From the sequence record OZ346187.1: a stretch of 64,000 nucleotides of DNA. One strand, written 5' to 3'. The notes under the pieces were generated by a model. The model made no database searches. It was given only the letters and a program-made list of their open reading frames with translations, and was not told the DNA's origin. Of the stretch, positions 5,575 to 51,511 are shown one piece after another. Numbering within the stretch: the first letter of the stretch is position 1; each line of letters opens with the position of its first letter. Origin of the DNA: a phage. The translations under genes were made by a program, and so were the position numbers.

Positions 5575-6618
5575 ATGACTAAACCAGTTATCCCTCTTGA
5601 TATTTGGGCCAATCAGGATGTTGTGCTTGAAAATACGGGAGAGTTGAATAAGTCTCAACCAAAAAAAGAAGAGAGATTGAAAGGTTGGGATATGACACAA
5701 AGAGTGGCATGTGAAGTTGTTAACTTTGAACTTCACATGCTTTCTGCGTGGTTGAAGCATTTAACAGAAGATGTTGTCCCAGGATGGGATAATAGATTCT
5801 TAAGGGTCACTAATAATCTAGCAGACGTTCCAGACAAAGCTGCTGCACGTCAAGTTCTCAATGTATACTCACCTGAAGAAATGGACGATCTATATGTTGA
5901 CAAGTCTGGAGACATAATGACTCAGACTCAAACTTTAGGTCTTCAAAGAATCGAGTTTGCATCTGCGTCAACAGACAGTGCGGCAATATATACCACCATA
6001 ACTCCAGACAAGACGACGATGGATTTCTGGATTATGGACAACATCGGTGGTGCTGACGGCACAGACCTTGATGATCCTTCTCACCAAATAGATGGGTTCC
6101 GTTGGAGATTTCAACCTTCTGGTGGGCAGCCTGTGTTTTCAGCTATGAAGCTCAATGCTATAACTGCCAACCGTGCAAGACTGGCTATCCAAGGAAATCT
6201 TGAATGCAACGATGCAAAAAGTTCCTCTGCAAATGCCAATGCGGTCACGATACCAAGAGCCACTGTTAATGGACAACAATCCTGCGGAAGCGCTCAAATA
6301 GGTGGAAGAGTTGATTGTAACGATGAAACCGTCAGGGGCCAATATGCAACAGTTGGTGGAAGAAACGTGGTCCGCAGGGTAAATGGTAACGGCGCAGACA
6401 GTAGCGGTAACCTTACTATCCCTATGCCTAGCAGAGGGGTTGATGATGTAAGGATAGCAAACCGTTTTAAAACCACCTACAGAGAGTCAAGAGTCTACCC
6501 TGGACATGTGATGTGCTCTGGTAACTACGCTTATAAACACCCTTATCAAGGTGATTACTGGACAGGTGCTATCCAAAAACTTGTAAATGGTCAATGGATC
6601 ACTATATCTTATGCTTAA
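5575..6618 (+). CDS. putative tail fibre / receptor-binding protein, paralog 2 (347 aa)
   Basis: ATG at 5575 after AGGAGA (track starts at GTG 5572); PLDIWA N-terminus and KLVNGQWITISYA C-terminus parallel ORF 3520-4560. Confidence 0.6.
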   Translation: MTKPVIPLDIWANQDVVLENTGELNKSQPKKEERLKGWDMTQRVACEVVNFELHMLSAWLKHLTEDVVPGWDNRFLRVTNNLADVPDKAAARQVLNVYSPEEMDDLYVDKSGDIMTQTQTLGLQRIEFASASTDSAAIYTTITPDKTTMDFWIMDNIGGADGTDLDDPSHQIDGFRWRFQPSGGQPVFSAMKLNAITANRARLAIQGNLECNDAKSSSANANAVTIPRATVNGQQSCGSAQIGGRVDCNDETVRGQYATVGGRNVVRRVNGNGADSSGNLTIPMPSRGVDDVRIANRFKTTYRESRVYPGHVMCSGNYAYKHPYQGDYWTGAIQKLVNGQWITISYA

Positions 6619-6629
6619 AAAGAGGGTAA

Positions 6630-6896
6630 ATGAAACTAACTCAGTTTTTATGGGGACTGGTTGCGGCATCTGATGACCCTACGAAAGTGTCCCAAACTAA
6701 GCTATGGTCGAACATAGGCATGGCGGTGATGACTGGGGTGTTTATTCATATGGGGTATAATGATACGCTTCCTGAATGGTATGCGTGGATATACGCGCCT
6801 TCAGTAGCTTGCCCCCAGCTTATTAGCAAATTCATCTCGCTCCGGTGGGGTTGCCAGCACCCTGACCACGTTAAAAACGAAGAGCAAAAAGCTTAA
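6630..6896 (+). CDS. hypothetical protein (88 aa)
   Basis: ATG with AGAGGG RBS; hydrophobic central segment. Confidence 0.45.
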   Translation: MKLTQFLWGLVAASDDPTKVSQTKLWSNIGMAVMTGVFIHMGYNDTLPEWYAWIYAPSVACPQLISKFISLRWGCQHPDHVKNEEQKA

Positions 6897-6905
6897 GGAG
6901 AAATC

Positions 6906-8651
6906 ATGGCGCAAGACATGACAAGCTTTGAGCAGGCGGTAGATCAAGTAATTGTTGATTCTGAACGTTTGCACCTGATTGTCAACGGTAACGCTGTGGA
7001 TGAAGTTGTCGTAGAGGATGGGACCACCATCCCTACGGTACGAAAAGCCATGCTTGACACCCTTTATTTTAAAACGCCACCGATCCCTTGGGCGTATGGT
7101 GCATCCACAACAGTTTTTAACCAGCTGTACGAGTTTAAAGGGGACACAGGCCCTCAGTGGTGGTACGCTCCCGCAGCATCAAAATCTAACCCGGTTAGAA
7201 TGCCAGCAGATCCTTCACAATCTCCAAACTGGAGATTATATACCGATTCTGCAGTAATGGCAAAATACTACGCAAAACTTAACAGTCCGAGGTTCGAAGG
7301 TGACCCGCGAGTACCTACGCCTCCAATGGACGACAAATCCGAGTCTATAGCAAACACAGAGTTTGTTGTTGACTATGTGGATAGCATATTTGAAGCCATG
7401 GAGGGAATGAAAGTTACTGTAGGGTCTTTGGTGGTAAAAGGTCTTACAGAACTTGCTAACACTATAGTTGGTGGCACACTCACCTTACATGGGCCTGTTA
7501 ATGGAGCAGATTCTACTGCACGCTTCAGGAACCTAATCCTCACGGCAAATACTTCTACACTTACTTTTGCGTGGAGTGATCCTAAGCATGCAGACTGGAG
7601 AAGCACAGAGCTGCAACCTCATGAAGTGTCCACCCACAGGGTTATAGCTGACACTATAACTTCTGGGAAACCAGTGGCTAATAATAACGATGTGCATTTT
7701 GATGGTCTAGGTAATAACTTTTTTGACTACGTGTACATTCGTGGTAATGCCATGAAGGCAGCAACCGAACCGACATTGCAGGTAGATGGAACCACCAGGG
7801 TTAAGAACCTTGAGGTGACAGGCACTGTTACAGGGATAACCTACTCTGTCGATGGCACCATGATTTACCCTAGCTATATTGAAAGCACGGGGGACGCATT
7901 AATAAATGGTGATTTAGAAGTTGGCGGATCTGTAGTTATTCGAGGTACAGTCTCTATCCAAAACATAGCTCTGAATACCCTAAGAGTCAATGAGCGTGCA
8001 ACTTTTGAAGGGGAAGGGCTTACAGCCAACAAAGGTGTAATTACCGAGCTGACAACCACTACTTTAACTGCAACAACTGCAAACTCTGAAAACTGCAACG
8101 TTACCAGAAACTTGCAGGTAAATGGAGATGTTAGTTTAAACGCAGCAGGGACGGGCACCACCTACCTTCACAACCTTGAAATATCCGGCACAGTGACTGG
8201 GTGGCTGCCAGACTTCTCTAATGTCAACTTTGTTTGTAATGGCATTAACTCCAGTGGCAAGATAACCACCTCTCAAGAAATTGAGGCGGGTAAAACCATT
8301 ACTGCCCCTACTTTCCACGCAGGAAAGGTAGATTTTGATTTAGAGGAGGTTGACGCGTCCAGTGGGACATGGACACCTAACGGGCAGGCCAGTATGTATG
8401 TTGTCCACGCGAAAGGGGATTTTACAATAGGACAATGGCCTGGTACATCAGCGGAAGATAAACCTTATCCATTCACTGCGGTTATCTATGTCATTCAGGA
8501 TGCTGTAGGTCACAACGTGACTTTGCACGATAAGTATGCTATCCTGTCGGCAACGCCTGTTATTAATAACAAGGCTAATAGTGTTACCTTGCTGCAATTA
8601 ACATATTGTGGTGTTGGTGATATCGTAGACGTAGTAATTGCACAACGTTAA
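6906..8651 (+). CDS. putative tail fibre/tailspike protein (581 aa)
   Basis: AAGGAGA RBS; repeated (L)E(V/I)(T/S)GTVTG-type motifs and Thr/Asn/Gly-rich repeats typical of fibrous proteins. Confidence 0.55.
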   Translation: MAQDMTSFEQAVDQVIVDSERLHLIVNGNAVDEVVVEDGTTIPTVRKAMLDTLYFKTPPIPWAYGASTTVFNQLYEFKGDTGPQWWYAPAASKSNPVRMPADPSQSPNWRLYTDSAVMAKYYAKLNSPRFEGDPRVPTPPMDDKSESIANTEFVVDYVDSIFEAMEGMKVTVGSLVVKGLTELANTIVGGTLTLHGPVNGADSTARFRNLILTANTSTLTFAWSDPKHADWRSTELQPHEVSTHRVIADTITSGKPVANNNDVHFDGLGNNFFDYVYIRGNAMKAATEPTLQVDGTTRVKNLEVTGTVTGITYSVDGTMIYPSYIESTGDALINGDLEVGGSVVIRGTVSIQNIALNTLRVNERATFEGEGLTANKGVITELTTTTLTATTANSENCNVTRNLQVNGDVSLNAAGTGTTYLHNLEISGTVTGWLPDFSNVNFVCNGINSSGKITTSQEIEAGKTITAPTFHAGKVDFDLEEVDASSGTWTPNGQASMYVVHAKGDFTIGQWPGTSAEDKPYPFTAVIYVIQDAVGHNVTLHDKYAILSATPVINNKANSVTLLQLTYCGVGDIVDVVIAQR

Positions 8652-36487: not shown

Positions 36488-39400
36488 ATGAGTATGTGGA
36501 ATTTTGACTTTGAGGCCTCAGGTCTTCTGGACGAGGAAGATCTTTACTACCATTGTGGCCTGTTTAAAGAGTTGAATAAAAATAATTTTATGTTGTTTTT
36601 GCCTATCAATGATAGATCTCATTACAGTGAAGAGGAGGTTGAAAAAGCAAAACAATTTATGCTGGCAAAGCAAGATATCTATCCTAGCTGCTCTGTCCGT
36701 ATTGCGGATTTCAGCCAGCTTGAATGGTGGTTAACCGGGAACTCCGATTGGTCACCCACATCATTAAGTTGTCACAACTGTTTTAGTTATGACTTTATCT
36801 TGATGGAGAAGCTGTCTGGTATTCATTTTGATATGTTCCGTGATCCCAAGTGTATGGGGACAATCAATAATCATCAGGTGAACCTGTTCGACACTCTGCC
36901 AATGAGTCGTATACTATGGCCCGACAGACCGTTACCTAAAGGATGCCCTGATTCTGTATACAATCCTGTTACAAAACGTATGCAGCAGGTAGGTCCTCAT
37001 GGCCTAATGGCGTGGGGGTACGCTTTAGGAAACCAGAAGGTTAAAATTGATGACTGGAGAAATTTACCTCTGTGGAAGTATGTTGATCGTGTATTCGAGG
37101 ACGTTATCATCCAGGAGCTGCTCTGGAAAGAGCTGGTAGCGGAATCAAAAGGTGTATTCTACGGCAAATCTGACATGCAGAACTTTATGTACGATCCAGC
37201 CAAAGAGAAGCCGAAAGGGTTCAAGAAGATTACCTGGAAGAATGCATTACGCCGAGGCATGCTGCAGCACTTCCTGATGGAGCTGCAGGCCCGTCAGGGT
37301 GTATACTTCGACATAGATGGAGCTATTGCTTTACGTGACCGTTGCGATGCGTGGATGAAAGAAATCGCTGATCGTGTTGAACCACAACTACCTTTAAAAG
37401 AGCTGTCAATGTCTCAGCGGCCCAAGTTCCCTGAAAAGCCGTTTAACCAAGACGGGACAATCTCTAATAATGGTTGGAAATGGTTAAAAGATAAGCTTGG
37501 CTATCCTGTAGACATGAGTGCTTTAGAGTTCAAAGCCCCGCCTAAGCGAGCATTTACCTCTACAGGAGATGTCAGCAAGATGGGGATAAAATGGTGTGAA
37601 GAGATGGGCTGCAAAGACCCCGATAAGATGGCTGATTTCTTGAGAGGCTATATTAAGGGCACCTCCACACCACAACCCTTACCTAAAGAGCTGATGGATC
37701 AGGCAATAAGTGATCTGCAGCAGAAGCGAATGCCTGACTGCAAGATACCTATGAAAATCAGCAATCAGGACGACATCAAGCGATACCTAATCAGTGCTGG
37801 TTGGCTCCCAACAATGTGGAGAACTAAAGATGTAACTAAAGACAGCAAGAAGAAAGCTTTACCTGATGCAGATGTTGATGCACGAGTATATGCATATATG
37901 GACGAGCTTTTGGAGTCAGAGTATTGTGACCTAATTATCAACTTCTGGAACAAAACTGATGCTAAGTTCCAGACAACCGTGCACAAGTTCCGAAGCTTTC
38001 CTAACTCCGAAAGGATTAAAAAGGAAGTATTCGGGAAAATACGTAGAAAAGCCAGGGCACTTATTACTTCTCCGCAACTGAAAGATACGTTTGGACACCT
38101 ATGCCCAAATCTTGAAAAATTGAACGGAGAGATGGCTAAAGATATCGTCTTGTGGTTATCATTGCGAAACCGCAGATCGGTCCTTGATCCAATCAAGGAG
38201 GATAAGGTTGATACTGGTCTTCTTAATCACCCACGTTTGAAGATTGACCATAAGCTTCCTGCTAAAAGCTCTGGATTAACAAACACTTCCAGACAGAAAC
38301 ACAGTATTTGTGCAAACATGCCTAAACCATCTCCTAAAGTGGTTATGGGTAAAGAGATGCGTAGTCTGTGGGGTGTTCCTCCGGGATACTTTGAGATCGG
38401 TATTGACGGGTCCAACTTAGAGCAGCTTATCGGGGCTTGGGGTGCCTTTGAGTTCGACAACGGCCTGTATTATGATGTTGTAAGTAATGGCGATGCACAC
38501 TGTTATTCAGGAGATACACAAATTCTCACGGAGAAAGGGTGGGTGAGGTTTGAAGATCTTGATCCGGGAACACAAGTGTTCCAGTACGATCACAACACCT
38601 CGTCAATGAACCTTGTTACTCCATTAAATTACGTTAAGCGTAGTTATTGTGGGGATATGTATCATTTCCACAACAGTAGTGTGGATTTTATGGTTACAGA
38701 TCAACACAGGATGCTGACTGTGGATCACAGAAGCAATAAATTGTTTGAAGATTTGGCAAAAGACCTGAAAGCAGGTAAAGGGTCTAATTCAGGAAGAAGG
38801 TTTATCCATGCGGCAGAGTTTTATGGGAATACAACCTTATCTCCTGCCCAGGTTAATTTGCTTATTGCTATTCACGATGATGGGCACTTGCATACAAATA
38901 AGGACGGCAGCATCGTGTGCAGGATTCAGGTCGGAAAGGGAAGAAAAGTTGCAACGCTTTTAGATACTTTTTCTGCTCTAAGCCTTAGTTATGTAGAGCA
39001 GAGCGGGAAAACCACAAAAGGGGGCTTACTGGCGAGAAGGTTCCAATTCCACGTTCCGTCCTGGGTATTTGAGTTTTTGGACAACAATAAGGATTTCACC
39101 TATAACCTGATGAACCTTGATAAAGAATCTAAAAACCTGTTTATAGCTTCTTTATCTAACTGGGACGGGTGGGTATCTTCCGAAGGTGGAAAGGTTGCTT
39201 ACTACTCCCAGGCCGAGTGCAGGAAGAAATCTGTAGAGGTGGTGTCTGCGCTGGCTACTCAGTGTGGTTTACGGAATAATACGGTGGCGATTCACAAAAA
39301 AGGTCGTGCCGTGCAGCACAGAATCACAATTGGTAGCAAACAGAGAGCAGGGTTGCTGACACTATCTAAAGAGTCTGTCGAGGTGAGCGGTTCTTTGGTT

Positions 39401-39886
39401 TATTGCGTTACCGTCCCTTCTGGAGCAATCATTGTGAGAAGGAATGGTAAAGTGGCAGTGTGCGGTAACTGTAATAACGCCAAAGCTTACTCTTCTGTAG
39501 CAGGCAAGGAGATTTCCCGTAACGATGGTAAACCTATCACGTATGGGGTTATGTATGGGGCACAAAAAGATAAAGTTGCAGATATGCTGGACATCTCCCC
39601 AGAGTTGGGACAAAGGGTAATCGATGCACTCTGGGATGCCAACCCAGGTCTTAAGGGGCGCAAAGAGGATCTGGAGAAATTCTGGGAAGCAACAGGTAAG
39701 AAGTTTATCTACTCTTTTGATGGTCATGCTATCTGGACCCGATCTAAACACTCTTTACTTAATGCATACCAACAAAATGGCGGTGCATCGTTGTGTGACT
39801 TAGTTGGAATACTCATGCACCACCAGATGGTGAAGCGTGGGTGGTACGATGAAGGTGTTCGTCGTATTATTTATTACCATAAATAA
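36488..39886 (+). CDS. family A (Pol I/T7-like) DNA polymerase with 3'-5' exonuclease domain, interrupted by an intein (1132 aa)
   Basis: Exo I-like NFDFEASGL at the N-terminus; motif A-like IDGSNLEQL followed by GDAH; motif B-like RNDGKPITYGVMYG after the insertion. Confidence 0.85.
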   Translation: MSMWNFDFEASGLLDEEDLYYHCGLFKELNKNNFMLFLPINDRSHYSEEEVEKAKQFMLAKQDIYPSCSVRIADFSQLEWWLTGNSDWSPTSLSCHNCFSYDFILMEKLSGIHFDMFRDPKCMGTINNHQVNLFDTLPMSRILWPDRPLPKGCPDSVYNPVTKRMQQVGPHGLMAWGYALGNQKVKIDDWRNLPLWKYVDRVFEDVIIQELLWKELVAESKGVFYGKSDMQNFMYDPAKEKPKGFKKITWKNALRRGMLQHFLMELQARQGVYFDIDGAIALRDRCDAWMKEIADRVEPQLPLKELSMSQRPKFPEKPFNQDGTISNNGWKWLKDKLGYPVDMSALEFKAPPKRAFTSTGDVSKMGIKWCEEMGCKDPDKMADFLRGYIKGTSTPQPLPKELMDQAISDLQQKRMPDCKIPMKISNQDDIKRYLISAGWLPTMWRTKDVTKDSKKKALPDADVDARVYAYMDELLESEYCDLIINFWNKTDAKFQTTVHKFRSFPNSERIKKEVFGKIRRKARALITSPQLKDTFGHLCPNLEKLNGEMAKDIVLWLSLRNRRSVLDPIKEDKVDTGLLNHPRLKIDHKLPAKSSGLTNTSRQKHSICANMPKPSPKVVMGKEMRSLWGVPPGYFEIGIDGSNLEQLIGAWGAFEFDNGLYYDVVSNGDAHCYSGDTQILTEKGWVRFEDLDPGTQVFQYDHNTSSMNLVTPLNYVKRSYCGDMYHFHNSSVDFMVTDQHRMLTVDHRSNKLFEDLAKDLKAGKGSNSGRRFIHAAEFYGNTTLSPAQVNLLIAIHDDGHLHTNKDGSIVCRIQVGKGRKVATLLDTFSALSLSYVEQSGKTTKGGLLARRFQFHVPSWVFEFLDNNKDFTYNLMNLDKESKNLFIASLSNWDGWVSSEGGKVAYYSQAECRKKSVEVVSALATQCGLRNNTVAIHKKGRAVQHRITIGSKQRAGLLTLSKESVEVSGSLVYCVTVPSGAIIVRRNGKVAVCGNCNNAKAYSSVAGKEISRNDGKPITYGVMYGAQKDKVADMLDISPELGQRVIDALWDANPGLKGRKEDLEKFWEATGKKFIYSFDGHAIWTRSKHSLLNAYQQNGGASLCDLVGILMHHQMVKRGWYDEGVRRIIYYHK
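38501..39469 (+). mobile_element. intein with LAGLIDADG-like homing endonuclease domain inserted in the DNA polymerase (323 aa)
   Basis: In-frame insertion between GDAH and motif B; starts CYSGDTQILTEKG (Hint block A), ends ...VYCVTVPSGAIIVRRNGKVAVCGN then Cys +1; internal LLIAIHDDGH and FIASLSNWDGW resemble LAGLIDADG motifs. Confidence 0.65.
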
Positions 39887-40153
39887 CATTGTGGCTTCAT
39901 AGAGTAATCTATGTCGAATAACCTCTTTAACTGCGGGAAGCCTAAACCTTATGGCAAGGTAATCCGCAACGAAGCGCTCAAAAGAGCGAACGCTCAGAGG
40001 CCATTCCGAAAGGAAGTAGACCAGCAAGTGCGGTCGAAATGGGAGGATTCCTGTGGTTGCTTATCATAGGAATATGAGATGGTCCGATCCTACGTGAAAA
40101 CGTATGGCTATGCACGTAATGGTGCGGGGTAGCTTAACGACCTACCTGAACTA

Positions 40154-44911: not shown

Positions 44912-44927
44912 CAATTAGTTAACATAG

Positions 44928-44955
44928 CCCTGCCCGAAAGGGTGGGGCATTTTTG
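44928..44955 (+). terminator. rho-independent terminator, GAAA-tetraloop hairpin (second copy)
   Basis: ccctgccc-gaaa-gggtgggg then cattttt; same core as 33548. Confidence 0.6.
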
Positions 44956-44973: not shown

Positions 44974-45390
44974 ATGACATTAGAAGATATCATTGTTAAA
45001 CCTGAGAACTATGACCAATACAACCTGTCAACTCAATCTGTAGACCTTGGATGCGCCACAGTTAGTGCGTGGCTGGTTAATGGAAAAGAGCTGGACAAGT
45101 GCTTAGAAGCTCACATGTCTGTTAACAAGTTTCTGGATGAAAATACTCACTGGCTTGAGGGTGCTGGAGTATATGCTTCATGGTTGGAGAGCATGGGCTT
45201 TGACTATCAATCTGATGAAGGGTGGTGGAGCTATCTGGCTATCTGTCCAGAAACACTGCAATGCTTCATGAAATACTCTGAAGATCTTGAGTACCGAGCG
45301 GTGGTTGATAGTGCTATTGCCCGTTATAGCCGTAAACCTTTTTCCCATGACATTAAAACTGTGGAAGAATTTGTTGAAGTTTTCTGTTGA
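44974..45390 (+). CDS. hypothetical protein (138 aa)
   Basis: AAGGAGA RBS. Confidence 0.45.
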   Translation: MTLEDIIVKPENYDQYNLSTQSVDLGCATVSAWLVNGKELDKCLEAHMSVNKFLDENTHWLEGAGVYASWLESMGFDYQSDEGWWSYLAICPETLQCFMKYSEDLEYRAVVDSAIARYSRKPFSHDIKTVEEFVEVFC

Positions 45391-45486
45391 CACAGGTTGA
45401 AAGGTGTGCAATTATAACTTCATAAAACGGGAGGACGCGATGAACGAAGAAAACTGGGATGTATAACTAACAGGAGACCACTGCCC

Positions 45487-45684
45487 ATGATTTATCGAAT
45501 CCGTGTAAGAGAAGATGCACCAGGCTGTTACTTTGACTGGCGTGGGTGGTGGTTTCTCCACCCAATGGATGGACTCACAGATAGAATGCTGGATGCTGCC
45601 CTTTATACAGATACCGACATAGAATATAATCTCTATCTGAAGGACGGTATAGATAACGGTCTATTTGAAGCAATTCCTGTGTAA
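45487..45684 (+). CDS. hypothetical protein (65 aa)
   Basis: AGGAGA RBS. Confidence 0.4.
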   Translation: MIYRIRVREDAPGCYFDWRGWWFLHPMDGLTDRMLDAALYTDTDIEYNLYLKDGIDNGLFEAIPV

Positions 45685-45752
45685 GAGACTGTGATAGCCA
45701 TGTTTTATGATCTTCCTGTAGCACCACCACCTGTTGAACCTGGAGAACTAAG

Positions 45753-46172
45753 ATGATCTATGAAATGCCAAAACTGATTCGTGACGATGCCCAAAACCAC
45801 ACCATTATTATGGGTAAACGCATGAATATCCTTTGCCGTAACGATTTCTGTGGTGTAGAATACGTTGCAGACTACTTCGGTGAGAATGGTAAACACCCTG
45901 TTCAGTTCTTCCTTGACCATGAGGATAACATTATCTGGGAGTTTGAAACTGAAGATATCCGCAACCTCTTCATCTTCCTCGGTGTCAAGGTTAAGGCCAA
46001 TTTCGCGGAAGGTGAGTGCGACGATTGTGGATTTTATGAGGTGACAGACTTCTATCTCCCGAGTGGCAAGAACATTTACTATGAGAGTCACTTCGGAAAC
46101 ACCAACATGCCTCAAAGCTGGGAAGAATTTTTCAGTATCGTAGAAGAGGAGCTGGCATACCGTGATTATTGA
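45753..46172 (+). CDS. hypothetical Cys-containing protein (139 aa)
   Basis: ORF with RBS. Confidence 0.45.
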   Translation: MIYEMPKLIRDDAQNHTIIMGKRMNILCRNDFCGVEYVADYFGENGKHPVQFFLDHEDNIIWEFETEDIRNLFIFLGVKVKANFAEGECDDCGFYEVTDFYLPSGKNIYYESHFGNTNMPQSWEEFFSIVEEELAYRDY

Positions 46173-46620
46173 TACTGTAAAGGGAGATTTAATCTCCCTT
46201 TTTAAGAGCGGTGCTGGTCACCTAATCCACGGTTGTAACTGCTTCCACACAATGGGTAAGGGCATAGCAAAACAGATTGCCCGTGAGTTTCCTCAAGCAT
46301 TGTCAGCCGACAAAGAGACCAGACACGGTTGCCTAAGTAAACTGGGTGCGTTCTCCCGATGGGAGCACTTATCTCCGAGAGGTATTGTCTACGGAATCAA
46401 TCTGTATACTCAGTTCTACCCAGGGCCTAATGCTGAATATTTCTCAATCCTGAAAGGCTTTGAGCTAGTCAATGAGGTATTCGAGGGATCGACTTTACCA
46501 TTCTACATCCCTAAGATCGGATGCGGCATAGGCGGTTTGAAGTGGGAGCACGTAGAGGACGTTATTAACCTCGCCACTTTTGATATAGATATTATCGTGG
46601 TGGAGTACAAAGAGTGTTGA
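46162..46620 (+). CDS. macrodomain protein of the DarG/TARG1 type (152 aa)
   Basis: N-terminal GDL...AGHLIHGCNCFHTMGKGIAKQIAREFP matches the GNLL...NTVN..GVMGKGIA...FP signature of TARG1/DarG-type ADP-ribose-processing macrodomains; GTG start. Confidence 0.55.
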   Translation: MIIDTVKGDLISLFKSGAGHLIHGCNCFHTMGKGIAKQIAREFPQALSADKETRHGCLSKLGAFSRWEHLSPRGIVYGINLYTQFYPGPNAEYFSILKGFELVNEVFEGSTLPFYIPKIGCGIGGLKWEHVEDVINLATFDIDIIVVEYKEC

Positions 46621-46645
46621 CAGCTGACTTTTGAGATGGTATAGT
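46617..46645 (+). promoter_or_regulatory. sigma70-like promoter (TTGACA-17-TATAGT)
   Basis: -35 overlaps upstream TGA stop; upstream of 46677. Confidence 0.45.
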
Positions 46646-46676: not shown

Positions 46677-46877
46677 ATGGAGACTAAAATCTTAATTCTG
46701 GCTGTGATAGATACGACCGAAGGGGCCGTGTTCGAATCTGCAGGAGGGTATTTCTACCTGCCCTACGGAAAAATAACTTCCGAACCGAGTAAAGATTCAA
46801 TCCTTAAAGTGTTCCCTTGTGCTTTCTGGCTGGAGATTCTGGTAGAAGATTGCAGAGGATTGGGGAGAGAATTATGA
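46677..46877 (+). CDS. hypothetical protein (66 aa)
   Basis: GAGAGGGAG RBS. Confidence 0.4.
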   Translation: METKILILAVIDTTEGAVFESAGGYFYLPYGKITSEPSKDSILKVFPCAFWLEILVEDCRGLGREL

Positions 46878-47068
46878 GAAACAAGAAAGAGCTTTACTCT
46901 GGCGAGTGGATCAACGATCAACAGGTCGGAGAGGTAACCTGCTTCCGGTGTTTTACTCGGTACAATCTTAAAACTGCACCAAAAAGTGTTCCAAAGACTG
47001 ACGGTTATTACATAAAAGAACCTCATTGCCCAAAATGTAAATGCCGATTGTACTGGAGCAATCTATAA
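46874..47068 (+). CDS. small zinc-ribbon-like protein (64 aa)
   Basis: ATG at 46874; CFRC and CPKCKC Cys pairs. Confidence 0.4.
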   Translation: MRNKKELYSGEWINDQQVGEVTCFRCFTRYNLKTAPKSVPKTDGYYIKEPHCPKCKCRLYWSNL

Positions 47069-48447: not shown

Positions 48448-48476
48448 TACTTGAAAATCCCTGGCATATCAAGTGT

Positions 48477-48512
48477 AAGGAGGATTTCTAAAATGGATTT
48501 CCTCCTTTTGAT
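48477..48512 (+). terminator. terminator-like hairpin at end of plus block
   Basis: aaggagga ... tcctcctt stem with about 15-nt loop followed by ttgatattt. Confidence 0.35.
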
Positions 48513-48747
48513 ATTTCACCGGGCCAGATATTTTAAAATTCTTAGAAAATCAGGTCTTTGAAATGAAAAACAGATCGAGTACCGAAAGAGGATGTACAAA
48601 TTTTCTGATAATAATGGACTTATTGTTATAAAAGGTCAGAGGTAAGCTGGGAAAGTTCTGGTAGAAGGGTGAGAGTATGTGCGGAAAAATCTGGAATAGT
48701 GACTTAAAGTACGGTGCGAACGATAAGGAATTGAGCAGCACATCTTA

Positions 48748-49150
48748 TCGTGCCTGTATTTTGTGTGGATGAATGAGAATACCTATCATTGTGAGAACCA
48801 TTATCATTACGGGCAATTTAACAGTACCGATTATGCGCACCACTGGCGATACATACAGGGATTGATAACATGGGTTACTGTTTACGCACATAACAATTGT
48901 ATTTCTTACTATTTGTGTGGGCGTTTAGACGTTGACGGTCAGAAGTCTGCAGGTTAATATCTAATCTATTGGCTGCTAACTATATCCCACACAAATAGTA
49001 AGAAATACAATTGTTATGTGCGTAAACAGTAACCCATGTTATCAATCCCTGTATGCATGCCAGTGGTGCGCATAATGGGTATTATGTTAAATTGCCCGTA
49101 ATGATAATGGTTCTCACAATGATAGGTATTCTCATTCATCCACACAAAAT
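48748..49150. repeat. large imperfect inverted repeat (arms about 170 bp, spacer about 64 bp)
   Basis: 48748-48921 is the near-exact reverse complement of 48986-49150 (identical for the outer 66 nt and the inner about 66 nt; one indel-containing patch); track ORFs 48763-48957(+) and 49014-49205(-) are mirror images of it. Confidence 0.85.
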
Positions 49151-49379
49151 AGATTGCAAATGTTGTGCCACTGTGTGAACGGCCTGGCCTATTAATTTGC
49201 CTCACTGCCTTGATATTTGAGAATTATTATAAGAATGAGAAGTATTCCCATTTCGTCCGCCTGGCAGCACTCCTGTAGGTCCTGCAAGGACTCTAGCTGA
49301 AAGCTAGACCCTTCGGGCCTCCCTGCAGGTCAGGTCAAAATCGTGGTAGAATTGGGCCTGTTCAGATATTTCTGGCTGA

Positions 49380-50587
49380 CTCTTCAGGTCTGTGTGGGAA
49401 AAGCCAACCTCTCCGGCGGGGCATGGGGTCATGACGGGAAAATTGCAGGTCAATTAAAAAATTTACGTGGTGTATGAAGCGCTCTTCAGGTAAGGCAGGT
49501 ATTATGGGATGAAACCCTCTTCAGGCAATGATATTTGTGGGTGTGATATTTGCTGGAAAGCCAGATATGACGGGACTCCCGGCGGGGCAGGGGTAGTACA
49601 GACAGGGAAAATATGGAGGATGTGGTTGGGTAAATTGATCAGGCAGGTAGAGTATGGAATATGTTACAGGTATGTTAAATAGGGAGGCTGAATATCTGTA
49701 GGATTTGTGTGTAAAATCAAAGACTTAAGTGGTGTTGTGGTATTTTCTATAAATAATTCAAGTTTAATAGGTAATATTTGTCTCTATTCGCTTTGTGTGG
49801 TAAACAGATTCAGATGAGATTGGTTTACAAGTGTATACATAATATACAAATTAAAGATACAAGAAACCCCCCTCCCCCTTCGGCTACCATTCACCTTTTC
49901 CTCTGACTGGTACTTAAACACTTATTCAGACTCTTCAGGTTATCACCCATATATCATATGGCAGTGACTGGTGTCCTCCGGCCCCTCTTTCGTCACCCGT
50001 CCGCTTCGCCATGCTAATGCCATAGCCAATGGTTCGGTTGTTCACCCTGTTCACTCAGGTGTATCTCCATACCCCTTCAAACCGAAGAGAACAGAAAACC
50101 CGAATTACTCGGTAAAAGAAAAGAGAAGAACTTAATTTTATCAGGATAGGCAAGAATGTCAAGGCATGACTGCTCACTAAACAAGCAAACAGTCATGTGT
50201 GGAAGGTAAGTGATTGTGGTGGTAGGAAATTTAGTTGAAAGATGTGTTATAGGTGCTTCCAGCACTTTAGCCGGGCAGCTAATTGTGTGTCAGTCCAGCG
50301 GTTCATCCTCTACTTCACTGAAATCAATGTTCATGGTCTCTTCCCAACCATCGATCTCAGCACAAGAGTGGAGTTCTTTAGGGTTTACTCCCAAAGCCTC
50401 AGCAACAGAGTCTATATTTAACACCTCTGGCAGGTATGATTCATCGAATTCAAGGTAAATCAGGCCACGAGTGTTGTCAGCTCCACCAAATATCTCTATC
50501 TTCATGAAATCTCCTCTGGAAATGAGAGTGTGAACAGGGTTTTATACGTTCTAATGCACAGGAATTATACACGTTTGCCTCTTCAGG
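49380..50587. repeat. iteron-like direct repeats in non-coding DNA
   Basis: CTCTTCAGG at 49380, 49482, 49517, 49931, 50579; about 35-nt repeat ctcc(c)ggcggggca(t/g)ggg...gggaaaat at 49411 and 49577; AT-rich stretch 49741-49860; C-tract 49867-49878. Confidence 0.5.
50290..50505 (-). CDS. small acidic protein (71 aa)
   Basis: ORF, first of minus-strand small-gene array. Confidence 0.4.
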   Translation of the reverse strand: MKIEIFGGADNTRGLIYLEFDESYLPEVLNIDSVAEALGVNPKELHSCAEIDGWEETMNIDFSEVEDEPLD

Positions 50588-50626
50588 CCATGCTTTAGCA
50601 TGAGGAACCTGTGTGGGCTCGGTGCT

Positions 50627-50839
50627 TCATAGTCTACCACCTCTGAACTCTTCGTGCTCAGGCATAATAGAGAACCAGATATCTACGATGTCCTCCCACG
50701 TCAGGTCATCAGCCTCAGGATCTGTCTGGGACGAAGATGAAGAGTCCTCAGAATCTAAGTTTTCCTCTTTAACTGGCTCATCCAAGGGACATATGGTCAC
50801 TCCTTCGGATGTCTCTTCAGATGCATGTGTGTTGATCAT
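50627..50839 (-). CDS. small acidic protein (70 aa)
   Basis: ORF; start overlaps the stop of an upstream 33-codon hydrophobic micro-ORF (ATGA). Confidence 0.4.
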   Translation of the reverse strand: MINTHASEETSEGVTICPLDEPVKEENLDSEDSSSSSQTDPEADDLTWEDIVDIWFSIMPEHEEFRGGRL

Positions 50840-51199
50840 GTTCCCCCCGTGAGTATTCCGGCAACAGCCGCTATGGAAGTAATGATCATCAGGATCACCA
50901 CTAAAACTTCAGACAATGTTCTCATTGTGTATTCCATATTCTCCAAACTGTGTGTGGATACTATCACGGGAGCGGTAATGTGTCAACAGCAACGCCGCGA
51001 GGGTTTGGTTAAAATCCGAGCGTATGGTGATTTGGGTCAAAACGGACGTGCGTTCTCGCTACGCTCGAAATATGGAGTTGTTTGTAGGGAGCTCTTAAAC
51101 GCTCTGTAATGAGATTAACTGCCCAAGGTATGCAATCGTGCACCAGATAAAGAAAAGGACGCCACAGAGCGTCCTAGGTGTCTTAAATTTGATATTTTG

Positions 51200-51511
51200 C
51201 TATACCCACGAGGGCTTATCAAGGTTGGAGTAGCTGAAAGGTGTCAAAAGGTGACTGTCAAAATCTCTCAAACTATCCAAATCTTTTTCCTCGTCCTGAC
51301 ACCATCTGTGCCTACATTTGTTGTTGTAGTGCATGGAATGCATAGCGTTCTGCAACTTAACAGGCACAAGTGATTCAGGAGTAGATAGTATTGTTGGGTA
51401 TGCCAGAACCACCTCAAACAGTGGAAACACATCGAAACTAAAGTCTACCTCTGCAGAGGTTGATGGCATGTAGGAGTATTTAGCCGCCTTTGTAGACATA
51501 ATCCACCTCAC
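51200..51511 (-). CDS. hypothetical protein (103 aa)
   Basis: ORF in minus block. Confidence 0.4.
   Translation of the reverse strand: MRWIMSTKAAKYSYMPSTSAEVDFSFDVFPLFEVVLAYPTILSTPESLVPVKLQNAMHSMHYNNKCRHRWCQDEEKDLDSLRDFDSHLLTPFSYSNLDKPSWV

What the first reader, a model, noticed from the sequence alone, without database searches (positions are those of the whole stretch)
46162..46620. DarG/TARG1-type macrodomain protein among early genes
The N-terminus (GDL...HLIHGCNCFHTMGKGIAKQIAREFP) carries the signature of the macrodomain subclass found in TARG1 and the DarG antitoxin, which hydrolyse ADP-ribose from modified substrates. DarT ADP-ribosylates DNA as an anti-phage defence and other defences use ADP-ribose-derived chemistry, so a phage macrodomain is a plausible counter-defence enzyme. 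The gene ends inside the -35 of the next promoter, so it is part of the early programme.
Basis: partly seen in the sequence, partly recalled or inferred. Interest (0 to 1): 0.7.

Follow-up and report, generated by a model that had tools for sequence, protein, structure and literature searches.

The report
Phage macrodomain, probable anti-DarT2 enzyme

Summary

The window is a Vequintavirus (98.6% identical to phage MaxTheCat/Bas57). The protein is 40% identical to T4 Tk.4 and 70% identical to RB49 Tk.4, and falls in the same PHROG (335). A 2025 preprint showed that tk.4 (adfM) is the gene T4 needs to grow on DarTG2. A 2026 paper showed that a jumbo-phage macrodomain, also named AdfM, removes DarT2 marks from DNA.

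The catalytic Lys of DarG/TARG1 is an invariant Gln here (Q84; 258 of 259 relatives). SCO6735, a proven thymidine-ADP-ribose DNA hydrolase, has the same Gln, and so does T4 Tk.4.

The protein has no DarT-binding domain and no DarT neighbour, so it is not a DarG. It is a free-standing eraser.

The consensus promoter overlapping the stop codon is confirmed and conserved. Early timing is inferred, not shown.

Verdict: a new, untested member of a known kind; modest interest.

The parts
46162..46620 (+). Macrodomain gene (152 aa, GTG start, TGA stop); Vequintavirus orthologue of T4 tk.4/adfM (bas57_0089 in MaxTheCat)
46146..46151 (+). GAGGAG ribosome-binding site, 10 nt before the GTG start
   Evidence: read from the sequence
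46228..46269 (+). Codons H23-A36 (HGCNCFHTMGKGIA): first ADP-ribose-binding loop. N26 is the counterpart of DarG N22, SCO6735 N27 and phiKZ AdfM N23. H23 is the counterpart of SCO6735 H24.
   Evidence: In 115 relatives: N26 115/115, H23 114/115, G24 115/115, G34 and A36 115/115. N26 is also 144/144 in further representatives. Mutational data come from PMC9411070 and PMC13309987.
46399..46413 (+). Codons N80-Q84 (NLYTQ). Q84 occupies the column of the catalytic Lys of DarG (K80) and TARG1 (K84), and of the essential Gln85 of SCO6735.
   Evidence: alignments A2; Q84 114/115 and 144/144
46510..46536 (+). Codons P117-G125 (PKIGCGIGG): Gly-rich diphosphate-binding loop. G120 and G122 correspond to SCO6735 G126 and G128. 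G124 replaces TARG1 Asp125.
   Evidence: the model blocks covering this loop have pLDDT 94-98
46617..46645 (+). Sigma-70-type promoter for the next gene (TTGACA, 17 nt, TATAGT, with a TG extension). The macrodomain stop codon lies inside the -35 hexamer.
   Evidence: 11 of 12 matches; hexamers conserved in 4 relatives while the spacer diverges
45387..45415 (+). Nearest strong upstream promoter-like site (TTGACA, 17 nt, AATTAT, with TG); probable start of the transcript that carries the macrodomain gene. It also overlaps the stop codon of the preceding ORF.
   Evidence: its use is inferred, not shown
44927..44948 (+). Intrinsic-terminator-like hairpin followed by a T run, after the 408-aa gene; upstream boundary of the gene group
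45487..46172 (+). Two upstream ORFs of unknown function (65 aa and 139 aa), probably co-transcribed. Neither is a DarT or another ADP-ribosyltransferase.
   Evidence: no Pfam family found for them

Best explanation
The gene encodes a free-standing ADP-ribosyl hydrolase of the Tk.4/AdfM family (ALC1/TARG1-like macrodomain class, Gln type).

Proposed sequence of events:
1. Host RNA polymerase transcribes the gene from sigma-70-type promoters soon after infection.
2. If the host carries a DarTG2 system, infection frees the DarT2 toxin. DarT2 attaches ADP-ribose to thymidines in single-stranded phage DNA and so blocks replication.
3. The phage enzyme binds the ADP-ribose between its two Gly-rich loops (G32-A36 and P117-G125).
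4. Q84, held in place by N26, positions the distal ribose. The thymine-ribose bond is then hydrolysed by a lysine-independent, water-mediated mechanism like that proposed for SCO6735. This frees the DNA and lets replication continue.

The protein has no DarT-binding domain, so it acts by erasing the mark rather than by sequestering the toxin.

Shown here: gene, fold, class, conserved site residues, and homology to T4 Tk.4.
Shown by others for homologues or analogues: the DarTG2 phenotype (T4 tk.4) and thymidine-ADP-ribose hydrolysis (SCO6735; phiKZ AdfM).
Inferred: that this orthologue has the same substrate, and that it is expressed early.
For: - Macrodomain fold and class.
- Full-length homology to T4 Tk.4: 40% identity, E 8e-42. 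RB49 Tk.4 is 69.5% identical. All fall in PHROG 335.
- T4 tk.4/adfM was the single significant HIDEN-SEQ hit on DarTG2, and a clean knockout sensitised T4.
- Window H23, N26, Q84 and G122 match SCO6735 H24, N27, Q85 and G128, whose mutation abolishes or strongly reduces de-ADP-ribosylation of thymidine-ADPr DNA, although the paper attributes the H24Y loss to a disrupted fold. SCO6735 also rescues E. coli from DarT (mapping).
- These residues are nearly invariant in 259 relatives.
- Gln-type macrodomains of this clade are fused to NADAR, the guanine-ADPr DNA hydrolase, in the three longest relatives. Three of 48 bacterial loci have a NADAR neighbour. This links the clade to erasing ADP-ribose from nucleic acids.
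- T5, which is sensitive to DarTG2, has no match to the family profile in its first 86 kb.
- Consensus promoters flank the gene.
Against: - No experiment exists on any Vequintavirus orthologue. The Bas54 (Vequintavirinae) transposon library was not reported against DarTG2.
- The T4 evidence is a preprint and is genetic only. No biochemistry exists for any Tk.4-type protein.
- The protein is only 26-29% identical to SCO6735 and DarG.
- It lacks SCO6735's longer mobile loop with Lys89/Lys94, which aids DNA binding.
- K33, the counterpart of SCO6735 Lys34, is not conserved in the family (11 of 115).
- SCO6735 also acts on proteins, so the substrate range is open.
- Bacterial relatives are not next to DarT.
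Confidence: 0.7

Rival explanations
1. It is a broader or different eraser. Its main targets would be ADP-ribosylated proteins or RNA, for example marks placed by other host ADP-ribosyltransferase defences or toxins, or by a phage-encoded transferase. Activity on DarT2-modified DNA would then be absent or secondary.
For: - SCO6735 and TARG1, members of the same class, hydrolyse protein-linked ADP-ribose as well as DNA-linked ADP-ribose.
- The family is very widespread: 2812 phage records and 1429 50%-identity cluster representatives at E<=1e-30. That may exceed what one defence system explains.
- Bacterial members are not linked to DarT.
Against: - The only phenotype known for a family member is specific to DarTG2.
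- The fusion and neighbour partner is NADAR, a DNA-base eraser.
- No ADP-ribosyltransferase was found among the adjacent genes.
Confidence: 0.15
2. It is a small-molecule enzyme, as the legacy 'phosphatase' or 'O-acetyl-ADP-ribose deacetylase' labels say. It would be an ADP-ribose-1''-phosphate phosphatase like yeast Poa1p, or a deacetylase of sirtuin products, tidying up NAD-derived metabolites during infection.
For: - Poa1p shares the IHxCNC N-terminal motif.
- PHROG 335 and several GenBank records carry the 'phosphatase' or 'deacetylase' labels.
Against: - Those labels are inherited from domain names, not from tests.
- No tRNA-splicing 2'-phosphotransferase or sirtuin partner was found among the neighbours.
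- The T4 homologue has a defence-specific phenotype.
- The window protein has HGCNCFHTMGKGIA in its first ADP-ribose-binding loop. From my own recollection of the MacroD-type motif (Nx6GG[V/L/I]D), that motif is absent; this comparison was not run as a tool test.
Confidence: 0.08
3. It is a non-catalytic ADP-ribose binder that sequesters an ADP-ribose-derived immune signal or shields modified sites, rather than hydrolysing anything.
Against: The residues that replace the Lys-based site (H23, N26, Q84, G122) are the ones needed for catalysis in SCO6735, and they are almost invariant. Such conservation is not expected for a mere binder.
Confidence: 0.03

Closest known systems
T4 Tk.4 = AdfM (anti-DarT factor macrodomain; HIDEN-SEQ preprint 10.1101/2025.11.20.689424), including RB49 Tk.4
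   Same: Same length (about 152-155 aa), single domain, 40% identity (69.5% for RB49) over the full length, and the same PHROG 335. It shares the HGCNC, NLYTQ and P[KR]IG[CA]GIG motifs, including the Gln at the catalytic-Lys column. Both sit among small non-structural genes.
   Different: Different phage family (Vequintavirinae, not Straboviridae) and different neighbours (T4: vs, regB, tk; here: unknown ORFs). The DarTG2 phenotype has been shown only for T4.
SCO6735 (Streptomyces coelicolor) and BT1257 (PDB 5E3B, 2FG1/2AFC), the Gln-type ALC1-like macrodomains
   Different: Only 26% identical. The mobile loop after the Gln is 5-7 residues shorter and lacks Lys89/Lys94. Val25 is Gly24 here. 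The motif is NLYTQ rather than NMIGQH. SCO6735 and BT1257 are cellular, not viral.
DarG2 antitoxin macrodomain (M. tuberculosis 5M3I, T. aquaticus 5M31/5M3E, Thermosipho 7OMU)
   Different: Catalytic Lys80 is replaced by Gln. There is no C-terminal DarT-binding domain. It scores 48.5 bits against a cut-off of 250. No darT gene is adjacent.
Chimallivirus AdfM (phiKZ gp104; Cell Rep 2026, PMC13309987)
   Same: A phage-encoded single macrodomain, proposed or shown to erase DarT2 marks on DNA. It also matches PHROG 335.
   Different: Only 20% identical to the window protein (E 7e-5). phiKZ gp104 is 37% identical to M. tuberculosis DarG (E 9e-28) and keeps the Lys (FPTK). It is imported into the phage nucleus. 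It appears to be a separate lineage.
Human TARG1/OARD1 and yeast Poa1p
   Different: The TARG1 Lys84/Asp125 dyad is Gln84/Gly124 here. Poa1p acts on a small molecule.

Membership tests
Macrodomain superfamily (Pfam PF01661) | Profile match above the curated gathering score | tested here: met
   28.5 bits against a cut-off of 22
Macrodomain superfamily (Pfam PF01661) | Three-layer alpha/beta/alpha macro fold | tested here: met
Macrodomain superfamily (Pfam PF01661) | Two Gly-rich ADP-ribose/diphosphate-binding loops | tested here: met
   G32-K-G34-I-A36 and P117-K-I-G120-C-G122-I-G124-G125, almost invariant. Ligand binding itself was not tested.
ALC1/TARG1-like macrodomain class | Closer in structure to TARG1, DarG, Poa1p and SCO6735 than to MacroD, viral or PARG classes | tested here: met
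DarG2 antitoxin (NCBIfam NF048014) | Whole-protein score at or above the equivalog cut-off | tested here: not met
   48.5 bits against 250; only model positions 2-143 of 338 are matched
DarG2 antitoxin (NCBIfam NF048014) | C-terminal DarT-binding domain | tested here: not met
   The protein is 152 aa, and the macrodomain fills it
DarG2 antitoxin (NCBIfam NF048014) | Catalytic Lys (K80 in T. aquaticus and M. tuberculosis DarG) | tested here: not met
   Gln84 occupies that column
DarG2 antitoxin (NCBIfam NF048014) | Encoded next to a darT toxin gene | tested here: not met
   Ten neighbouring ORFs have no DarT or other relevant Pfam family. No DarT is found beside 48 bacterial relatives either.
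TARG1 | Lys84/Asp125 catalytic dyad | tested here: not met
   Gln84 and Gly124 occupy those columns
SCO6735/BT1257 Gln-type subclass | Gln at the Lys column, with the supporting His and Asn and the PB-loop Gly (H24, N27, Q85, G128) | tested here: met
   H23, N26, Q84, G122; their functional importance comes from PMC9411070
SCO6735/BT1257 Gln-type subclass | Extended mobile loop carrying Lys89/Lys94, and Val/Ile at position 25 | tested here: not met
   The loop is 5-7 residues shorter and lacks the lysines. Position 24 is an invariant Gly.
Tk.4/AdfM family of phages (PHROG 335) | Full-length homology to T4 Tk.4 and the same PHROG | tested here: met
   40% identity, E 8e-42. PHROG 335 at E 3e-60 for the window protein and E 1e-65 for T4 Tk.4.
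Tk.4/AdfM family of phages (PHROG 335) | Shared HGCNC, NLYTQ and PxIGxGIG motifs | tested here: met
   alignment A2; residue census
Tk.4/AdfM family of phages (PHROG 335) | Needed for growth on DarTG2 hosts | not testable with these tools
   Shown only for T4. Not reported for the Vequintavirinae phage Bas54.
Chimallivirus AdfM (phiKZ gp104 type) | DarG2-like sequence with catalytic Lys (K78) and import into the phage nucleus | tested here: not met
   20% identity; Gln instead of Lys. Vequintaviruses are not chimalliviruses (taxonomy lines).
Poa1p-like ADP-ribose-1''-phosphate phosphatases | Phosphatase activity on Appr-1''-p | not testable with these tools
   Only fold and N-terminal motif similarity are available. 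The Poa1p residue at the Q84 column could not be read.

The most novel reading that the evidence does not exclude
The Tk.4-type phage macrodomains, including this one, are not 'orphan DarG2 antitoxins' captured from darTG2 operons. They form a separate, very large Gln-type lineage.

- Size: 1429 50%-identity cluster representatives at E<=1e-30. All 144 newly returned representatives among the best 150 hits carry Gln.
- Mechanism: they would use a lysine-independent mechanism like SCO6735.
- Origin: phages would then have acquired anti-DarT2 erasers at least twice, as Lys-type AdfM in jumbo phages and as Gln-type Tk.4 in T4-like, rV5-like, FelixO1-like and other phages.
- Substrates: like SCO6735, the Gln type may act on both DNA and protein, so it could counter more than DarT2. 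The natural Macro-NADAR fusions would be bifunctional erasers of thymidine- and guanine-linked ADP-ribose on DNA.
Probability: 0.45. Interest if true: 0.4.

Novelty: new member of a known kind. Interest (0 to 1): 0.25.

Why it matters
DarTG systems are common in E. coli and other pathogens, and rV5-like phages are candidates for phage therapy. Knowing that Vequintaviruses carry a probable anti-DarT2 eraser helps predict host range and explains resistance to one defence.

The useful detail added here is that this widespread phage family uses Gln, not the Lys expected from DarG and TARG1. A motif check for 'the catalytic lysine' would therefore wrongly dismiss these genes. The two proteins currently called AdfM (T4 Tk.4 and phiKZ gp104) appear to be mechanistically different lineages.

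The concept itself has already been published, so the finding mainly extends it to another phage subfamily.

Tried and rejected
- **Partner genes.** I looked for a toxin or transferase partner. Ten neighbouring ORFs gave no Pfam family except a phage zinc-binding domain in 46817-47068, so this is not a toxin-antitoxin pair.
- **DarT next to bacterial relatives.** Among 48 loci and 110 neighbouring ORFs, no PADLOC DarT match was found. Housekeeping genes dominate instead, for example class I aminoacyl-tRNA synthetases. The 'captured antitoxin' origin is therefore not supported. Caveats: only up to three ORFs within 500 nt were scanned per locus, and the Pfam list shows only the top 25 of 62 families.
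- **Failed locus search.** The first locus search, with alignment A1, failed for lack of a conserved stretch. It worked with A4.
- **Poa1p residue at the Q84 column.** It could not be read. The structure paper is not in the library, and a C-terminal fragment query did not retrieve Poa1p.
- **Opposite strand and RNA genes.** The opposite strand of the gene holds only 32- and 35-aa ORFs. There are no tRNAs in the window, and no Rfam family lies at the locus.
- **T5 consistency check.** The first 86 kb of T5 has no match to the family profile. The last 36 kb (late genes and the terminal repeat) was not searched.
- **3D geometry.** Residue distances in the model could not be measured because model coordinates are not exposed. 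Site mapping rests on alignments.

Full report
**1. Observation**

The window holds an ORF at 46162-46620 on the + strand (GTG start, 152 aa).
- The GTG overlaps the stop codon of the upstream 139-aa ORF (GTGATTATTGA), and a GAGGAG site lies 10 nt upstream.
- Homologues in RB49 and T4 start with the same residues.
- Relatives annotate an identical 459-nt CDS.
- The opposite strand has only 32- and 35-aa ORFs.
- No tRNA or Rfam family lies at the locus.

**2. Source of the window**

A 3-kb query around the gene is 98.6% identical to Escherichia phage MaxTheCat (Bas57). It is 92-97% identical to many other Vequintavirus (rV5-like) genomes. In MaxTheCat the gene is bas57_0089, annotated 'hypothetical protein'. 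A few relatives call it 'macro domain protein', 'O-acetyl-ADP-ribose deacetylase' or 'Poa1p_like'. It lies downstream of the replication genes (helicase, primase, DNA polymerase) in a long run of small + strand genes.

**3. Macrodomain fold and class**

Sequence evidence:
- Pfam Macro scores 28.5 bits against a cut-off of 22.
- PHROG 335 matches at E 3e-60.
- The PADLOC and NCBIfam DarG models match over their macrodomain part only. NCBIfam gives 48.5 bits against a cut-off of 250, covering positions 2-143 of 338.
- The best single-sequence PDB hit is the M. tuberculosis DarG macrodomain (5M3I, E 8e-8), followed by Poa1p, BT1257, SCO6735 and TARG1.

Structure evidence:
- An AF2 model built on 37 homologues has pLDDT 94.1 and pTM 0.89.
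- Foldseek puts TARG1, Poa1p, DarG, BT1257 and SCO6735 on top.

**4. The catalytic lysine is absent, and that is the family norm**

In the pairwise and profile alignments, DarG K80 ('FPTKKHW') and TARG1 K84 ('ITKK') align with Q84 of the motif NLYTQ. TARG1 D125 aligns with G124.

Residue census in 115 homologues from the 5.8-billion-protein search:
- Q84: 114/115
- N26: 115/115
- H23: 114/115
- G24: 115/115
- G34, A36, N80: 115/115
- G120: 114/115

In the 144 newly returned representatives among the best 150 hits of the 1.84-billion-protein library, Q84 and N26 are 144/144.

SCO6735 and BT1257 also have Gln there ('NMIGQH'). With the family profile they become the best PDB matches (74 and 67.5 bits).

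The SCO6735 paper (PMC9411070) reports the following:
- Gln85 sits at the position of the TARG1/DarG lysine.
- Q85A abolishes activity. N27S almost abolishes it and G128E substantially reduces it. H24Y also abolishes it, but the authors attribute that loss to a disrupted fold.
- The enzyme removes ADP-ribose from thymidine in ssDNA and rescues E. coli from DarT.
- The authors propose a water-mediated, lysine-independent mechanism.

The window protein keeps the four counterparts (H23, N26, Q84, G122). It differs in three ways:
- Its mobile loop is shorter and lacks Lys89/Lys94.
- It has Gly24 where SCO6735 has Val25.
- Its K33 is not conserved in the family.

**5. Homology to a tested phage protein**

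A tblastn search of 50,697 phage records finds the family in 2812 of them. These include T4-like phages, where it is Tk.4:
- 69.5% identity to RB49 Tk.4.
- 40% identity to T4 Tk.4 (pairwise E 8e-42).

T4 Tk.4, RB49 Tk.4 and the window protein all match PHROG 335 end to end, and all carry the Gln.

The HIDEN-SEQ preprint (10.1101/2025.11.20.689424) reports that tk.4 was the only significant conditionally essential T4 gene on a DarTG2 host. A clean knockout sensitised T4, and the authors named the gene adfM. They built a library for a Vequintavirinae phage (Bas54) but do not report testing it on DarTG2.

Independently, a Cell Reports 2026 paper (PMC13309987) showed that phiKZ gp104, also named AdfM, removes DarT2 marks from DNA and protects chimalliviruses. 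That protein keeps the Lys. It is 37% identical to M. tuberculosis DarG but only 20% identical to the window protein. The two proteins called AdfM therefore look like different lineages.

**6. Context**

None of ten neighbouring ORFs has a relevant Pfam family, so there is no DarT or other transferase partner.

Bacterial relatives were found in 48 loci, mostly Rhodobacterales and Hyphomicrobiaceae. They are also single-domain proteins of about 150 aa carrying HGCNC and NAYTQ. Their 110 neighbouring ORFs include no PADLOC DarT match. Three have NADAR neighbours, one has an ADP-ribosylglycohydrolase neighbour, and eight sit next to class I aminoacyl-tRNA synthetases.

The three longest family members are Macro-NADAR fusions, one of which also carries DUF4326. 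NADAR is the guanine-ADP-ribose DNA hydrolase of DarG1 and AdfN (PMC11825919). These associations point to erasing ADP-ribose from nucleic acids.

As a small consistency check, T5, which is restricted by DarTG2, has no match to the family profile in its first 86 kb.

**7. Promoters**

TTGACA, 17 nt, TATAGT (46617-46645, with a TG extension) is an 11/12 match. The TGA stop of the gene lies inside the -35 hexamer. The hexamers are kept in four relatives while the spacer diverges.

The same 'TGT TGA CA' design ends the ORF 44974-45390, at the promoter-like site at 45387. This is the likely start of the transcript that carries the macrodomain gene, downstream of a terminator-like hairpin at 44927-44948.

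Promoter-like sites are enriched in 40-54 kb: 44 against 26.9 +/- 5.2 in shuffles. Early expression by host polymerase is thus plausible. It remains an inference, because no expression data were found.

**8. Conclusion**

The most likely function is a free-standing eraser of DarT2-made thymidine ADP-ribosylation on phage DNA, that is, a Vequintavirus member of the Tk.4/AdfM family (confidence about 0.7).

It is not a DarG. It fails four defining features: full-length score, C-terminal DarT-binding domain, catalytic Lys, and darT adjacency. It works like one half of DarG, the eraser half.

The rivals cannot be excluded without biochemistry:
- a protein or RNA eraser (0.15);
- an Appr-1''-p phosphatase or O-acetyl-ADP-ribose deacetylase (0.08);
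- a non-catalytic binder (0.03).

The concept and the family are already published (2025-2026), so this is a new, untested member of a known kind. The added value is the Gln-for-Lys point and the evidence that Tk.4-type and phiKZ-type AdfM proteins are distinct lineages.

Noticed in passing
window 48553-49322 (inverted repeat arms 48757-48921 and 48986-49151): A near-perfect palindrome of about 395 bp sits where collinearity with relatives breaks. The left arm is an inverted copy of the segment that follows it. This phage also lacks the block of small + strand genes that relatives carry here (5.4 kb in rV5_ev146, more in MaxTheCat). Relatives have a single copy of the segment. It could be a natural deletion with an inverted duplication, or an assembly artefact.
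   Followed up: partly
window 48450-51200: A stretch of about 2.7 kb has no long ORF. It lies between the + strand and - strand gene blocks, and cumulative GC skew peaks near 49750-50000. It probably corresponds to the roughly 2-kb intergenic region of Bas54 that tolerated no transposon insertions, and may be an origin of replication.
   Followed up: no
window 39871-40106 (+): A group I intron (Rfam RF00028, 64.7 bits) lies at the 3' end of the DNA polymerase ORF. Exon 1 ends ...IIYYH(K*), and the downstream frame reads DEYQLQVP... The intron therefore seems to split the polymerase within what I recall as the family-A polymerase 'HDE' motif (motif identity from memory, not tested). In rV5_ev146 an HNH endonuclease gene sits at this place.
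   Followed up: partly
window 38501-39472 (residues 672-995 of ORF 36488-39886): The DNA polymerase ORF carries an in-frame insertion of 324 aa relative to rV5_ev146 (1132 against 809 aa). The insertion starts CYSGDTQILT, ends ...VAVCGN, is followed by Cys, and has a weak Hint-domain match. It is very probably an intein.
   Followed up: partly
window 45385-45392 and 46615-46622: Two genes end with TGT TGA CA, so that the stop codon is embedded in the -35 hexamer of the next promoter. This looks like a recurring compact design in this gene block.
   Followed up: partly
P0149, P0217, P0218, P0197 (metagenomic relatives); L007-L054: Gln-type macrodomains of this clade occur fused to NADAR and/or DUF4326, and three bacterial loci have a NADAR neighbour. 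The fusions may be dual erasers of thymidine- and guanine-linked ADP-ribose on DNA.
   Followed up: partly
L004 (RB49) 1501-1956: The Vequintavirus protein is 69.5% identical to Tk.4 of the T4-like phage RB49 but only 40% identical to T4 Tk.4. This suggests gene exchange between Krischvirus and Vequintavirus lineages.
   Followed up: no
hits H10, H11, H18-H21 (MG0656xx records): Sixteen records labelled 'Campylobacter phage' with host C. jejuni are 93-94% identical to this E. coli rV5-like phage and are unannotated. The host labels look doubtful.
   Followed up: no
window 46817-47068 (+): The 83-aa ORF just downstream has a phage zinc-binding domain (PF23903, E 1.6e-22). It overlaps the 66-aa ORF 46677-46877. 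Relatives differ in which of these ORFs they annotate.
   Followed up: no
L057 7588-8094 (T5.105) and 6447-7265 (T5.102): T5 carries two genes annotated as Sir2 but has no match to the Tk.4-type macrodomain profile in its first 86 kb.
   Followed up: no
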